Assembly: GCA_902798585.1 (NCBI GenBank)
Contig: CADBXF010000005.1
Location: 82,824 to 146,823, forward strand
Length of the DNA: 64,000 bases
Origin: an uncultured Lachnospiraceae bacterium
GTDB taxonomy: Bacteria; Bacillota; Clostridia; Lachnospirales; Lachnospiraceae
Direction: 5' to 3'
Positions 58,390-62,218 of this stretch are shown piece after piece; within the stretch, counting starts at the first letter, position 1, and the number at the start of each line of letters is the position of its first letter. The translations under genes and the position numbers were made by a program. The notes below the pieces were generated by a model, which was not told the origin of the DNA, searched no databases, and saw nothing but the letters and a program-made list of their open reading frames with translations.

Positions 58390-58441
58390 GTGAAATAAAG
58401 GCGGAATGACACGAGCAATGCGAAGTGTCAATTCCGCCTTT
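58390..58441 (-). terminator. long hairpin, probable terminator insulating the trpB2 promoter
   Basis: AAAGGCGGAATGACAC-N12-GTGTCAATTCCGCCTTT (one bulge), followed on the minus strand by TTTATTT. Confidence 0.5.
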
Positions 58442-58810
58442 ATGAGCGAGTAACAAACACGAGCAAGAAGCCGCGCGTCAGCACGGCGGGATTGCGAGTG
58501 TTTGCAGGATTGCGAGAGTGCGAAGCACGTAGCAATCCGTCCTATCATTCAAACCTTTGCGAGCGAAGTGCAGACATGAGCAAGAAGCCACGCGAAGCGG
58601 GGCGGGATTGCGAATGGCTGCAGGATTGCGAGAGTGCGTAGCACGAAGCAATCCGTCTTATCACTCAAATCTCCAATGAACGAGTAACAAACACGAGCAA
58701 GAAGCGATGCGAAGCAGCGCAGGATTGCGAGTGCTCTACGTTGGTATGGCGTAAGTCGGTGCAGGATTGCGAGAGTGCGAAGCACGGAGCAATCCGTATC
58801 ATTCACTTAC
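58441..58810. repeat. three degenerate tandem units of ~117-141 bp, each ending in a GGATTGC-N18-GCAATCC hairpin
   Basis: Hairpins at 58507-58538, 58623-58654 and 58764-58795 (GCAGGATTGCGAGAGTGCGnAGCACGnAGCAATCCGT). GAGCAAGAAGC at 58461, 58578 and 58695. Extra half-sites GGATTGCGA[GA]TG at about 58489, 58605 and 58721. Confidence 0.85.
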
Positions 58811-58827
58811 TAAAAAAGACTTCATCT

Positions 58828-59307
58828 CTACTTCACCTGTCCAAGCGGAGTGGCCAAATAGATTTCGGCATTATATTCGAGATATACAATGTCCTCATGA
58901 ATGTTCACTGCCAGTCGTTCATAAACCATATTGCCGGTTATGCCAAACAAACCATCACATTTAAAGTCTCTGATAAATGCCTCCTGCCGTCCGGATTTCT
59001 CCTCTTCCGTAAACAAATCCGCTCCAAGAACGGACCCCTTCGTGGGGTTATTCAAAATCATCTGGAGTTCATCCCATTCCGATAACATGTCCTCTTTTAG
59101 TCTGTTATATTCTTCAACGCTCATCTCGAGGCGCTTACGCTTCTTTTCCGGAGCATCTTCCTTAACCTTAGTCACATATTGATCGAACTTCTGCGTCTCT
59201 TTTTCAAAGTGCCTAAGTGGAACATAGCGGCCTGCAATCCTGAAAAACACGACAGTCACAACAGCAAGCAGTAAAAGCAATGCTAACGCAATCCATTTCT
59301 TTTTCAT
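58828..59307 (-). CDS. hypothetical N-terminally anchored protein (lower-GC)
   Basis: MKKKWIALALLLLLAVVTVVFF anchor, then a charged helical region (EDAPEKKRKRLEMSVEEYNRLKEDM). No recognised domain. Confidence 0.55.
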   Translation of the reverse strand: MKKKWIALALLLLLAVVTVVFFRIAGRYVPLRHFEKETQKFDQYVTKVKEDAPEKKRKRLEMSVEEYNRLKEDMLSEWDELQMILNNPTKGSVLGADLFTEEEKSGRQEAFIRDFKCDGLFGITGNMVYERLAVNIHEDIVYLEYNAEIYLATPLGQVK

Positions 59308-59334
59308 TGCCAAACACCTCCGTACCCCCATGTT

Positions 59335-59523
59335 ATAGTTATAGTTATACTTCTGTCTTTCATCATCGTATTATAGAGTCATACCCCTTCTTTACCTTTT
59401 CTACAGATTAGGGTATGCTGTTAAAGATGCTGTGGATTGGTTCTGTTCTCCTACCGCATAGACGGTTTTTGAAAGGCTCCAACCACAGCCTCTTTGTCTC
59501 AATGTTAATCAGTTAGATACCGC
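59335..59523 (+). ncRNA. candidate IS110-type bridge (guide) RNA region in the 5' non-coding arm
   Basis: About 190 nt of non-coding sequence upstream of the IS110 recombinase. Stem GCTGTGGATTGG (59429-59440) pairs with CCAACCACAGC (59479-59489). TACCGCAT(A)GACGGTTT occurs at 59452-59468 and again at 59518-59533, across the ATG. Assigned only by analogy to published IS110/IS621 biology. Confidence 0.3.
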
Positions 59524-60732
59524 ATGACGGTTTATGTAGAACGAGGTTACATCCGGCAGAGAGCCCTGTGTGGTATCGATGTTGCCAAGGACAAGCATGA
59601 TTGCTGCATCCTCGGCTCGAATGGAGATGTTTTATTCCCACCGTTCACCTTTCCGAACTCCTTGCAAGGATTCGACCTGCTCTATGAGAGGATCGGGTCT
59701 TTGACCTCCGACCTGTCCAAAATAAAAGTAGGTCTTGAGGCTACCGGGCATTATCATCTCAATCTTCTGCGCTCGCTCCTTGATAACGGCCTGGCCAGCT
59801 ATGTTATCAACCCGCTACATACAAATCTTTTCAGAAAAGGTCTAAGCCTTAGAAAGACGAAAACGGATAAAGTCGACGCTTCTTCGATCGCTATGATGCT
59901 GTTAACCGATAGGACACTCAAGCCCTACACGGACACATCATACCACAACGAAGAACTAAAGTCATTAACCAGATATCGTTTTGATAAGGTTCGTGAACGA
60001 TCTAAACTAAAGGCGTCTGTCTCCAGACTTGTCAGTATCCTGTTTCCGGAACTGGAAACCCTCGTCCCAACGATTCATTTGGTTTCCGTTTATGCTTTGC
60101 TGTCAGAGTTTCCCGGGGCTTCGTTCGTTGCCTCCGCCCATCTGACGCGTCTTACTCATCTCCTCAAAGAGTCTTCAAAAGGACGCTACGGACGGGAAAT
60201 GGCCATCTCCTTTCGTGCCGCAGCGGTTTCCTCAATCGGTTCCGTCTTTCCGGCTAAATCCCTGGAACTTAAACACACCATCCATCTCATTGAAGTTCTT
60301 ACCGAGGAGATTGATGAGATTGAAGCTGCCATTAATGACATCATGGATACGTTGAATTCTCCAATCACAACGATTCCCGGCATCAAGAACCGGATGGGTG
60401 CCATGATCCTTGCAGAGATTGGTGACTTCTCCAAATTTGAAAATGCGGACCAAATCTTAGCGTATGCCGGATTATCTCCCTCAACCTATCAGTCCGGTCA
60501 GATGACATCCTCCCATGCCCGGATGGAGAAGCGGGGCTCCCGCTACTTGCGATACGCTTTATTCAACGCAACGCAGTATGTCTGTATTTGGGACCCTGCT
60601 TTCAAAGCTTATCTCGCCAAGAAACGGGCAGAAGGGAAGCATTATTTCGTTGCCACCTCCCACGCCTGTAAGAAACTCGTTCGGTTGATTTATCGGATGC
60701 AGTTAACCGGCGAAGCTTACCGAATCGCCTAG
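59524..60732 (+). CDS. IS110 family transposase (DEDD recombinase)
   Basis: N-terminal CGIDVAKDKHD (DEDD RuvC-like motif) and the C-terminal Tnp domain IPGIKNRMGAMILAEIGDFSKFENADQILAYAGLSPSTYQSGQ. Confidence 0.92.
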   Translation: MTVYVERGYIRQRALCGIDVAKDKHDCCILGSNGDVLFPPFTFPNSLQGFDLLYERIGSLTSDLSKIKVGLEATGHYHLNLLRSLLDNGLASYVINPLHTNLFRKGLSLRKTKTDKVDASSIAMMLLTDRTLKPYTDTSYHNEELKSLTRYRFDKVRERSKLKASVSRLVSILFPELETLVPTIHLVSVYALLSEFPGASFVASAHLTRLTHLLKESSKGRYGREMAISFRAAAVSSIGSVFPAKSLELKHTIHLIEVLTEEIDEIEAAINDIMDTLNSPITTIPGIKNRMGAMILAEIGDFSKFENADQILAYAGLSPSTYQSGQMTSSHARMEKRGSRYLRYALFNATQYVCIWDPAFKAYLAKKRAEGKHYFVATSHACKKLVRLIYRMQLTGEAYRIA

Positions 60733-60994
60733 CATGAACTCTGGCCTTTTCTTATCGAGCACCCACAAGGATGCTCTGTTCGTCATGCAGTTTTCAAGGT
60801 GCTGATTTAATGAAGTATAAACTTCATTTTAGACTTGACTTTTAATAGTTAGTCTTACGCTCGCTCTCTGCCCGAAGCAATCGGATTTGGATGAACGACA
60901 CTTTTTTTGGATGAACGACACAAAAAGAGCTGCCGCCGGCGATAATAATCGCAGAAGCGACAGCTCCATGATTTCATTTCTTCGCATAGAAATG

Positions 60995-62218
60995 TTACTT
61001 ATCTTCTTCCTTGTAGTCAAATCCGGCGAGGTCGCGAACCTGTACCGCGCCCCAGAATGCCGGCTTCTTCTGATAGTTCTGGTTGAAGAGAAGCGGGCTG
61101 TAGCCCTTTCTCCAGGACATGCCGTCGGCAAATCCCCAGAATGTCAGCGCGTCCATCTTGAGAGTGCCTGCGTCGATACGCTCGAAGAGGCCGTTAATCA
61201 AATCGTAGTAGAACACACCCTGAGCGGCGAGGTTCTTCGCGTTCGGCTGCTTCGGCATCTGATATTTTCCGAGGCAGATATCGAGCTCGGTAAGCTGAAT
61301 CTTGAGGCCGAGCTTGCTGAGCTGGTCAACCGTCTTGAAGTAGTCCGTAAGGCTGTCCTGCGTGTAGAGGTGAGCCTGGAAACCGATACCGTCAATCAGG
61401 TAGTTGCCGTTCTCGTCCACAAGGGTCTTTACGAACTTCTCGAGCGTGTCGGTCTTGTACTGCTCGTTGTAGTCGTTGTAGTACAAATCGATGCTCGCGG
61501 GAGCATACTTATTTGCAAAGTAAAATGCCTGCCAAATGTAGTCCTCACCGATTACGCTGTACCAGGGGTTCATAGCGGAACGCATCGAGCCGTCTTCCAT
61601 CCACGCCTCGTTTACAACATCGTAGGCGTAAATCAGGTCGATGTATCCCTCTTCCTTAAGCTTTTCGAACACCTGCTTAATGTAGCTCTCCATACGCTTC
61701 AGCATCACTTCGCGGGTTACGAAGGGCTTGGCTTCGTCGAAATCCTCATGGAAAATCCACTGCGGCGTCTGGCTGTACCATACAAGCGTATGACCGCGAA
61801 CGGCCATTCCGTTCTCCTTGGCCCAGTCGAGCATCTTGTTCATGTTGGGGTTGAACTCAACAACCAGATCTCCGGCTGCCTTGCTCTTGTCCTGATTGAA
61901 CAGGTAGTCGGGCTTCATGTCATTTTCCATCGTGACGCTGGTGAACTGCTGCGTGATCAGCTTCGAGTAAGCGGCATTGTCCGTCATCGTCGTCGTAAGG
62001 CAGGTGCCGACCTTCAAACCGTGTGCGGCAAATACATCCTTCAGAGAAACATCCGGAACCGGAGACGGCGTAGGGGTAGGCGTCTCTGTGGGAGCCTCGG
62101 TCGGCGCGGCCTCGGTAGGCGTAGCCGTCGGCGTCGTGTTCTTCGTGTCCTTACCGCATGCGGCCGTAACGCCGATTACGGAAAGAATGAGCAGACACAA
62201 AACGATTGTCTTCTTCAT
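60995..62218 (-). CDS. GH10 endo-1,4-beta-xylanase, lipoprotein with PT-rich linker
   Basis: Signal/lipobox-like LSVIGVTAAC|GKD, linker PTATPTEAAPTEAPTETPTPTPSP, GH10 motifs GHTLVWYSQTP, YDVVNEAW, QLTELDI. Start at MKKTIV (AAGGAG RBS). Confidence 0.92.
   Translation of the reverse strand: MKKTIVLCLLILSVIGVTAACGKDTKNTTPTATPTEAAPTEAPTETPTPTPSPVPDVSLKDVFAAHGLKVGTCLTTTMTDNAAYSKLITQQFTSVTMENDMKPDYLFNQDKSKAAGDLVVEFNPNMNKMLDWAKENGMAVRGHTLVWYSQTPQWIFHEDFDEAKPFVTREVMLKRMESYIKQVFEKLKEEGYIDLIYAYDVVNEAWMEDGSMRSAMNPWYSVIGEDYIWQAFYFANKYAPASIDLYYNDYNEQYKTDTLEKFVKTLVDENGNYLIDGIGFQAHLYTQDSLTDYFKTVDQLSKLGLKIQLTELDICLGKYQMPKQPNAKNLAAQGVFYYDLINGLFERIDAGTLKMDALTFWGFADGMSWRKGYSPLLFNQNYQKKPAFWGAVQVRDLAGFDYKEEDK

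What the first reader, a model, noticed from the sequence alone, without database searches (positions are those of the whole stretch)
59335..60830. IS110-family element whose ~190-nt 5' arm may encode a bridge RNA
The recombinase has the DEDD RuvC-like N-terminus (GIDVAKDKHD) and the IS110 Tnp C-terminal domain. Published work on IS110/IS621 shows that the non-coding end adjacent to the recombinase gene encodes a structured bridge RNA whose two loops specify the target and donor DNA. Here the region 59335-59523 is non-coding. It contains a long-range stem (59429-59440 with 59479-59489) enclosing a ~38-nt internal region, and a 16-17 nt direct repeat TACCGCAT(A)GACGGTTT, once inside that loop (59452-59468) and once across the transposase ATG (59518-59533). 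The element sits in a neighbourhood rich in palindromic intergenic repeats, the typical IS110 target class. A new bridge-RNA/recombinase pair would be a programmable recombination system.
Basis: partly seen in the sequence, partly recalled or inferred. Interest (0 to 1): 0.6.

Follow-up and report, generated by a model that had tools for sequence, protein, structure and literature searches.

The report
Damaged IS110 element with bridge RNA
This is a single copy of a known kind of mobile element (IS110 group) that carries a real guide ("bridge") RNA gene, but a small deletion has removed its recombinase start signals and it sits at a site its guide does not match.

Summary
Empty sites in two same-genus genomes and about 80 homologous elements place the IS at 59367-60855, not 59335-60830. 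Its 16-17-nt direct repeat is the pair of inner hairpins of the TBL and the donor-binding loop (DBL).

- **Structure.** Across 57 homologues, 37 base pairs are 98% kept and 12 show compensatory changes.
- **Guide logic.** The loop arms follow the published IS621 rule: the 5' arm equals the left flank plus CT, and the 3' arm is the reverse complement of CT plus the right flank (0 of 10,000 permutations each).
- **Model test.** A covariance model built without the window sequence hits 59422-59564 at 162.7 bits.
- **Promoter.** TTGACT-17-TATTAT forms only when the two ends are joined.

This copy looks crippled. A 52-55-bp deletion at 59570|59571 removed the Shine-Dalgarno site and the native start codon. 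The "ATG" at 59524 lies inside the DBL hairpin, which is non-coding in every homologue. The copy is the only one in its genome. Its insertion site (…TTTCATC-AT-TACGC) does not match its own guides (predicted …GTTCTC-CT-TTCAAAA).

It is a new member of a known kind. Earlier first readers of this scan flagged related left ends in other genomes.

The parts
59367..60855 (+). IS110-group insertion sequence (1,489 bp; intact relatives are 1,541-1,595 bp)
   Evidence: Empty sites in G003:C100 and G011:C49 join 59366 to about 60856. nhmmer alignments of the left and right ends of about 60 homologues start at CGTATTATA and end at AATAGTTAGTCT.
59365..59366 (+). Left-junction core position, AT here (CT in the listed family junctions except L050/L069/L070, whose projected starts are misplaced)
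   Evidence: Junction table. G003's empty site also has AT at this position.
59369..59374 (+). TATTAT, the -10 half of the junction promoter. It overlaps the left subterminal inverted repeat TATTA (59369-59373).
   Evidence: TTGAC(T/A)-17-TATTAT is found across the joined RE-LE in 32 of 35 distinct homologue end pairs and in the window. No sigma-70-like site was found upstream in the integrated state.
59381..59416 (+). 5' stem-loop of the bridge RNA. The predicted transcription start is near 59381.
   Evidence: Helix 1 has 6 pairs, 3 of them with compensatory changes. All pairs are intact in the window.
59429..59489 (+). Target-binding loop (TBL). Outer stem 59429-59440 / 59479-59489. Left target guide (LTG) 59441-59452, TTCTGTTCTC+CT. 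Inner hairpin 59453-59466. Right target guide (RTG) 59467-59475, TTTTGAA+AG.
   Evidence: Helices 2 and 3 covary: GC<->AU in 22, 28, 5 and 8 sequences at four pairs. Loop arms track the flanks across the family.
59490..59563 (+). Donor-binding loop (DBL). Outer stem 59490-59497 / 59556-59563. Second stem 59502-59505 / 59549-59552. 5' arm 59506-59518, UAAUCAGUUAGAU. Inner hairpin 59519-59531. 3' arm 59532-59545, ending ACGAG.
   Evidence: Helices 4-6. ACGAG is the reverse complement of CT+CGT (core plus the first 3 nt of the LE). UAAU(C)AGUUAG matches TAATAGTTAG of the RE. The arms are almost invariant in the family, so there is no covariation test.
59524..59570 (+). Apparent N-terminal 16 codons (MTVYVERGYIRQRALC). 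This is bridge-RNA DNA read as protein. ATG 59524 lies in the DBL hairpin loop and has no Shine-Dalgarno site.
   Evidence: The equivalent DNA is upstream of AAGGAGG-N7-9-ATG-ATC-TAT-GTT-GGN-ATT-GAY in the homologues examined.
59570..59571 (+). Deletion scar. 52-55 bp are missing: the 3' tail of the leader, the Shine-Dalgarno site, the ATG and the next 8 nt.
   Evidence: Pairwise alignments to L021, L037, L024, L025, L018 and L030.
59571..60732 (+). Native part of the recombinase gene (DEDD RuvC-like domain plus the Ser-containing Tnp domain), uninterrupted
   Evidence: It is 66-85% identical to the 80 relatives kept.
60733..60855 (+). Right end (RE). -35 box TTGACT at 60835-60840. Subterminal inverted repeat TAATA at 60843-60847. 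Left donor AGTTAGT at 60847-60853. Core CT at 60854-60855.

Best explanation
Positions 59367-60855 are one copy of an IS110-group insertion sequence that is widespread in Lachnospiraceae. Its left end encodes a bridge RNA of about 185 nt or more, running from about 59381 to at least 59563. The RNA has a 5' stem-loop, a target-binding loop and a donor-binding loop.

How the family appears to work, by homology to IS621 (inferred, not shown here):
- The element excises as a circle.
- Joining the right end to the left end creates a TTGACT-17-TATTAT promoter, which transcribes the bridge RNA and the recombinase mRNA.
- The DEDD/Ser recombinase binds the RNA.
[quoted passage not shown] - The DBL holds the RE-LE junction, and strands are exchanged at CT.

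Natural targets of the family are the complement of Shine-Dalgarno sequences (…CTCCT), with the IS placed just upstream of, and antisense to, a gene.

The window copy keeps the whole structured RNA and an uninterrupted recombinase body. However, a roughly 53-bp deletion removed the leader tail, the ribosome-binding site and the start codon. The ORF is now fused to an ATG inside the DBL hairpin. The copy lies at a site that does not match its guides and has an AT core. It is most likely a stranded, poorly expressed or non-expressed copy produced by an off-target insertion.
For: - **Boundaries:**
- **Recombinase identity and catalytic residues:**
- **RNA structure:** 37 pairs are 98.1% paired, against 30-47% when the partners are slid. 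Twelve pairs have compensatory changes. The covariation score is 0.216, against at most 0.056 in controls, and 0 of 500 shuffles reach it. All 37 pairs are intact in the window.
- **Leave-one-out covariance model:** 162.7 bits, E = 7e-37, full length.
- **Guide logic:** cognate left-target match is 5.08/7 against 3.32 for non-cognate pairs. Cognate right-target match is 4.23/6 against 2.55. Both give 0 of 10,000 permutations. Strand rules match Durrant et al. 2024 (PMC11208160).
- **Junction promoter:** present in 32 of 35 end pairs, with none found in the integrated state.
- **Conservation:** the left end is more conserved than the coding sequence (up to 91% against at most 72% DNA identity).
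- **Deletion:**
- **Single copy:**
- **Non-cognate site:**
Against: - No expression or activity data exist.
- The DBL-donor pairing cannot be tested by covariation because both partners are nearly invariant in the sample. Simple word matches are not significant on their own (p about 0.07 and 0.11).
- The DBL 5' arm shows AU where the core CT is expected.
- The recombinase frame is open and could still be translated from ATG 59524, so 'crippled' is an inference.
- The right junction carries one more T than the two related empty sites predict.
- The deletion could be an assembly error in a draft genome.
Confidence: 0.8

Rival explanations
1. The copy is still autonomous. The recombinase is translated from ATG 59524 with a 16-residue N-terminal extension, the bridge RNA is complete, and the deletion is tolerated or even couples translation to the RNA.
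For: The frame is open with no other lesion. All catalytic residues are kept. All 37 RNA pairs are intact. The IS621 chain has about 10 residues before its aligned IGID motif, so an extension need not block folding.
Against: There is no Shine-Dalgarno site before ATG 59524, and the ATG lies in a conserved hairpin loop. The homologues examined keep AAGGAGG plus MIYVGID. This is the only copy in the genome. The deletion allele was not found in the metagenome scan, and the exact protein is not on record elsewhere.
Confidence: 0.2
2. The non-cognate site arose because a sibling element's bridge RNA mobilised this copy in trans. DBL and donor ends are nearly identical across the family, so a sibling with a different TBL could have directed the insertion.
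For: DBL and end sequences are almost invariant in 57 homologues. Bridge RNA works in trans for IS621 (PMC11208160).
Against: No second IS110 gene or bridge RNA is present in this genome. None of 87 sampled family guide pairs fits the site better than 8/13. The AT core fits 86 of those 87 guides no better.
Confidence: 0.1
3. The left end is only a 5' UTR or promoter region, and the conserved structure is a translational or transcriptional regulator rather than a DNA guide.
For: No direct RNA or binding data were obtained here. Rfam has no matching family.
Against: Loop arms co-vary with the flanking target DNA, on the strands predicted by the bridge-RNA model. A cis-regulatory leader would not do this.
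Confidence: 0.03
4. The 53-bp deletion is an assembly artefact, and the real element is intact.
For: The genome is a draft in 41 contigs. Reads could not be checked.
Against: The element lies inside a long contig with unique flanks and has no second copy that could cause a mis-join. The junction reads cleanly and in frame.
Confidence: 0.05

Closest known systems
IS621 (E. coli) bridge recombinase and bridge RNA (Durrant et al. 2024, PMC11208160; Hiraizumi et al. 2024, PMC11208158)
   Same: - DEDD RuvC-like plus Ser-containing Tnp recombinase (8wt6 hit at 1.8e-18, catalytic residues aligned).
- RNA encoded in the left end, with a 5' stem-loop, TBL and DBL.
- 5' arms are same-sense to the left half-site plus CT. 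3' arms are complementary to CT plus the right half-site.
- CT core.
- Promoter split between the RE (-35) and the LE (-10).
- Short subterminal inverted repeats around the donor.
   Different: - Protein identity is low, with a local alignment only. The recombinase is about 390 aa against 326.
- Targets are Shine-Dalgarno complements rather than REP elements.
- The position after the RTG 'AG' is almost always G and can pair with target position 7. In IS621 that cognate pairing is inhibitory.
- The DBL 5' arm reads AU at the core position and needs a one-base bulge.
- This copy has lost its translation start.
IS900 / IS901 / IS902 / IS116 group of IS110-family elements (from memory: Green 1989, Doran 1997; partly seen in PMC8141618)
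   Same: IS110-family elements that insert in one orientation next to the ribosome-binding site and start codon of host genes.
   Different: IS900 is recalled to insert between the RBS and the start codon (CATGN4-6*CNCCTT). Here the crossover lies just outside the SD complement, so the SD stays with the gene. Hosts are Actinobacteria rather than Lachnospiraceae. I did not compare the sequences.
IS1111-group seekRNA elements (Siddiquee et al. 2024, PMC11187229)
   Same: The same recombinase superfamily and the same RNA-guided logic.
   Different: In IS1111 the RNA is encoded downstream of the gene and the subterminal inverted repeats are 7-17 bp long. Here the RNA is upstream and the repeat is 5 bp.

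Membership tests
IS110-group bridge-RNA element | [quoted passage not shown] | tested here: met
   (3.4e-40 and 2.1e-24). (NF033542, 210 bits against a cut-off of 140). (D19, E72, D114, D117 and the Ser of YQSG align to the IS621 catalytic residues).
IS110-group bridge-RNA element | Structured ncRNA encoded in the left end, upstream of the recombinase gene, with two internal-loop modules | tested here: met
   (six helices, 12 covarying pairs). (all pairs intact in the window). (leave-one-out model, 162.7 bits).
IS110-group bridge-RNA element | First-loop arms match the insertion site: 5' arm equals LT plus core (bottom-strand pairing), 3' arm equals the reverse complement of core plus RT | tested here: met
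   This holds for the family: 5.08/7 against 3.32, and 4.23/6 against 2.55, with 0 of 10,000 permutations each. It does not hold for this copy at its own site: 4/7, 2/6 and core AT.
IS110-group bridge-RNA element | Second-loop arms match the RE-LE donor junction | tested here: inconclusive
   ACGAG is the reverse complement of CT+CGT, in the register homologous to the RTG. UAAU(C)AGUUAG matches TAATAGTTAG. Both partners are nearly invariant, so there is no covariation. Word-match p values are 0.07 and 0.11. The core is read as AU.
IS110-group bridge-RNA element | The same core dinucleotide at both junctions, with no target-site duplication beyond it | tested here: not met
   The listed family junctions read CT at the left edge (except three with misplaced projected starts), and the right ends close in CT. 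The window has AT on the left and CT on the right. It also has one T more than the empty sites of G003 and G011.
IS110-group bridge-RNA element | Promoter reconstituted across the RE-LE junction of the circular form | tested here: met
   By sequence only: TTGACT-17-TATTAT in the window and in 32 of 35 homologue end pairs. Activity was not tested.
IS110-group bridge-RNA element | RNA is expressed, binds the recombinase and directs recombination | not testable with these tools
No bench data are available.
IS1111 group | Guide RNA in the right end, a long RE, and subterminal inverted repeats of 7-17 bp | tested here: not met
   The structured, covarying RNA is in the LE. The repeat is 5 bp, TAATA/TATTA. 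The intact LE is about 210 nt against an RE of 123 nt.

The most novel reading that the evidence does not exclude
This Lachnospiraceae lineage may be a distinct bridge-RNA variant in two respects.
- It is hard-wired to Shine-Dalgarno complements. The LTG ends in CT in 86 of 87 guide pairs, mostly preceded by C. In 31 of 53 distinct sites the IS sits directly upstream of AGGAGG-N-ATG of an antisense gene.
- Its donor loop does not read the core C (AU instead of CU, with a bulged base). This would mean a donor-recognition geometry different from IS621.

The window copy would then be a natural record of a non-CT (AT core), guide-independent insertion.
Probability: 0.3. Interest if true: 0.45.

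Novelty: new member of a known kind. Interest (0 to 1): 0.3.

Why it matters
Bridge recombinases are being developed as programmable DNA-insertion tools, so new natural pairs are of practical interest. This window does not supply a ready pair because its copy has lost its translation start.

The analysis does define a large natural family. The family is present in 48 of 400 sampled genera of the host's family. It has a clear RNA architecture, readable guide rules, a CT core and a compact donor, and intact members such as L019, L085 and L096 could be tested.

The analysis also gives a natural example of an insertion at a site that matches neither guide. This bears on off-target behaviour. It also shows that an ORF call can run into a bridge RNA and mislead annotation.

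Tried and rejected
- **Rfam 15** has no family matching the region. The published IS110 covariance models were not available, so I built a family model instead.
- **Exact-protein look-up** found no other record.
- **Metagenome scans** for the deletion junction and for this copy's own TBL found nothing. I therefore could not find siblings with the same guide or other sites of the deleted allele.
- **A search of the own genome** for the predicted cognate target (18 nt, up to 3 mismatches) gave only two 3-mismatch sites.
- **Half-match off-target classes** (bioRxiv 10.64898/2026.08.31.748434). By eye the site matches neither LD nor RD, and LT matches only 4/7.
- **Trans-mobilisation by a sampled sibling guide** has no support.
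- **REP or palindrome targeting** is rejected. The 117-bp hairpin-bearing repeats at 58414-58802 are not at the junction, and the empty sites show a unique spacer.
- **A conserved structure in the deleted 3' tail** was not found.

Full report
**What is there.** The ORF 59524-60732 (+) encodes a 402-aa protein. It carries Pfam DEDD_Tnp_IS110 (3.4e-40) and Transposase_20 (2.1e-24). It matches NCBIfam NF033542 'IS110 family RNA-guided transposase' at 210 bits against a cut-off of 140. It aligns locally to the IS621 recombinase of PDB 8wt6 at 1.8e-18. In that alignment GIDVAK, LEATG, KTDKVDA and YQSG sit opposite the IS621 catalytic D, E, D, D and Ser. Rfam 15 has no family matching 58800-61400.

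**Boundaries.** A DNA search of 60 related genomes found two same-genus genomes, G003 and G011. In both, the left and right flanks of the window element are contiguous, reading …atacttctgtccttttatcat|acgcgcgctctctgcccgaagc…. A protein-guided scan of one genome per species returned 80 related loci, 66-85% identical in protein, mostly Lachnospiraceae, with more than 538 relatives detected. nhmmer alignments of the window's ends to these loci begin at CGTATTATA (window 59367) and end at AATAGTTAGTCT (window 60855). Six contigs of about 1.57 kb consist of the element alone. The element is therefore 59367-60855.

**The 5' arm is a bridge-RNA gene.** I aligned 57 left ends. RNAalifold and a pair count on a named structure give six helices:
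- a 5' stem-loop at 59381-59416
- an inner hairpin at 59453-59466
- a second module with an outer stem at 59490-59497 / 59556-59563
- a second stem at 59502-59505 / 59549-59552
- an inner hairpin at 59519-59531

Of the cells, 98.1% form standard pairs, against 30-47% when the partners are slid. Twelve pairs show compensatory changes, against 1-6 in the slid controls. The covariation score is 0.216, against at most 0.056, and 0 of 500 shuffles reach it.

It reflects the modular duplication of the two loops. In many relatives the first hairpin is ACCAC-UUG-AUGGU, so the repeat as such is not conserved, but the hairpins are.

A covariance model of the two loops, built from 56 homologues without the window sequence, hits 59422-59564 at 162.7 bits, E = 7e-37. 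The hit is full length with no non-canonical pair. It is the only hit in the 2.59-Mb genome.

**Guide logic.** Durrant et al. (PMC11208160) state two rules. [quoted passage not shown] In this family the 12 nt before the first hairpin end in CT in 86 of 87 distinct guide pairs. They repeat the left flank, for example:
- L034: TCCCACT
- L031: TCACCACCT
- L020: TATGCCCCT
- L038 and L026: GCAATTTCCT

The reverse complement of the arm after the hairpin equals CT plus the right flank, for example:
- L019: CTGTTTCA
- L085: CTAACTTAA
- L096: CTCACTTA
- L066: CTTTCATA

Over 59 and 57 distinct guide/flank pairs, the cognate match is 5.08/7 against 3.32 for the left side. It is 4.23/6 against 2.55 for the right side. 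Both give 0 of 10,000 permutations. The listed left junctions read …CT|CGTATTATA, apart from three loci whose projected starts are misplaced. The right ends read …AGTCT followed by a variable base that tracks the RTG. The core is therefore CT.

**Donor side.** The arm after the second hairpin ends in ACGAG. This is the reverse complement of CT+CGT, and it sits in the same register (AG-G-Y-U-stem) as the RTG. The arm before the hairpin, UAAUCAGUUAGAU, contains TAAT and AGTTAG of the right end, TAATAGTTAGTCT, if one C is bulged. It reads AU where CU is expected. Both partners are nearly invariant in the sample, so covariation is not available. Longest-word matches are not significant alone (p = 0.07 and 0.11). 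I treat DBL-donor pairing as inferred.

**Promoter.** Joining the RE to the LE gives TTGACT (60835-60840), a 17-nt spacer and TATTAT (59369-59374). The same arrangement, TTGAC(T/A)-17-TATTAT, is found in 32 of 35 distinct homologue end pairs. No sigma-70-like site was found upstream of the LE in the integrated state. TAATA (60843-60847) and TATTA (59369-59373) are 5-bp subterminal inverted repeats around the 10-nt GTTAGTCT|CG.

The RNA in the LE, the short repeat and the CT core place the element in the IS110 group, not IS1111 (PMC11208160; PMC11187229).

**What is wrong with this copy.**

*Deletion.* In the homologues examined, the DNA after the DBL continues …CCCTGTGGATC…CATCAAATAC…AAGGAGG-N7-9-ATG ATC TAT GTT GGN ATT GAY. 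The window reads …CCCTGTG|TGGTATCGAT. Relative to six relatives, 52-55 bp are missing between 59570 and 59571.
- The Shine-Dalgarno site, the ATG and the next 8 nt are gone.
- The remaining frame happens to stay open back to ATG 59524. That ATG lies in the loop of the DBL hairpin (ACCGC-AUG-ACGGU) and has no Shine-Dalgarno site.
- The 'N-terminus' MTVYVERGYIRQRALC is therefore translated bridge-RNA DNA.
- The structured RNA itself is complete, with all 37 pairs intact.

*Single copy.* This is the only copy, and the only PF01548 gene, in the genome.

*Wrong site.* Its own guides predict …TCTGTTCTC-CT-TTCAAAA. The actual site is …GTCTTTCATC-AT-TACGCTCG. The left target matches 4/7 and the right target 2/6, both inside the non-cognate distributions, and the core is AT.
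- None of 87 family guide pairs fits the site better than 8/13.
- By eye, it is not a donor-like half-match of the kind described for IS621 off-targets.
- The AT (target-type) at the left junction and CT (donor-type) at the right junction could fit descent from the top strand of a recombinant made between mismatched cores. In IS621 the top strands are cut 3' of the core (PMC11208158). The heteroduplex step is my inference.
- This reading needs the pre-insertion site to have been …CATCAT-TACGC. That is one T more than G003 (…ATCAT-ACGC), in a T-run that also varies in G011 (…ATTTT-ACGC). This point is unresolved.

**Family biology noticed.**
- Among 53 distinct left flanks, the reverse complement starts AGG in nearly all of those listed. 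In 31 of them it is followed at 9-17 nt by an ATG that opens an ORF of at least 60 codons. The family inserts directly upstream of the Shine-Dalgarno sequence of a gene, antisense to it.
- I recall that IS900-type IS110 elements also use host translation signals. PMC8141618 notes that the IS900 hed ORF lacks its own RBS and start codon.
- The family was found in 48 of 400 sampled genera of the host's family. Left ends are conserved up to 91% while whole elements reach only 72%.

**Limits.** Two metagenome scans, for the deletion junction and for this TBL, found nothing. The exact protein is not on record elsewhere. Whether the copy is dead or merely weak is an inference.

**Verdict.** However, the kind is already known: Durrant et al. 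predicted bridge RNAs in 85.7% of catalogued IS110s. This particular copy is damaged, single and at a non-cognate site. It is a new member of a known kind, of modest interest.

Noticed in passing
L018-L097, left flanks (e.g. L063:1018-1043, L077, L085): The family inserts right next to the complement of a Shine-Dalgarno sequence. In 31 of 53 distinct sites, AGGAGG-like sequence and an ATG-started ORF of at least 60 codons lie 9-17 nt from the left junction on the opposite strand.
   Followed up: partly
window 58414-58802: Three to four tandem units of about 117 bp, each with a GGATTGC…GCAATCC hairpin. They are at least 565 bp left of the IS and are not its target.
   Followed up: partly
window 60886-60921: TTTGGATGAACGACAC occurs twice, 20 bp apart, 30 bp right of the IS. 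It is also present in the empty sites of G003 and G011. Similar words occur on contigs C37 and C3 of the same genome. It therefore predates the insertion and is unrelated to it.
   Followed up: partly
L130 (G360:C24) 1501-1740: An orphan left end with a complete bridge-RNA region, 91% identical to the window's LE. It sits at a matching …ATTCTCCT site but has no recombinase gene after the AAGGAG. It looks like a truncated element.
   Followed up: partly
L021 and L022 (Mogibacterium pumilum chromosome): Two left ends 311-555 bp apart, and two right ends, flank a single recombinase gene. This suggests nested or tandem partial copies. Parts of these loci are masked with N.
   Followed up: no
window 59357-59362 and 60863-60872: Two possibly chance matches near the junctions. 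CTTTCA, which is CT plus the first 4 nt of the predicted right target, lies 5 nt left of the left junction. GCTCTCTGCC in the right flank is the perfect complement of the DBL 3' stem strand GGCAGAGAGC (59555-59564).
   Followed up: no
window 59340-59351: ATAGTT is tandemly duplicated in the left flank relative to G003 and G011 (atgttatagttatagttatac against atgttatagttatac).
   Followed up: no
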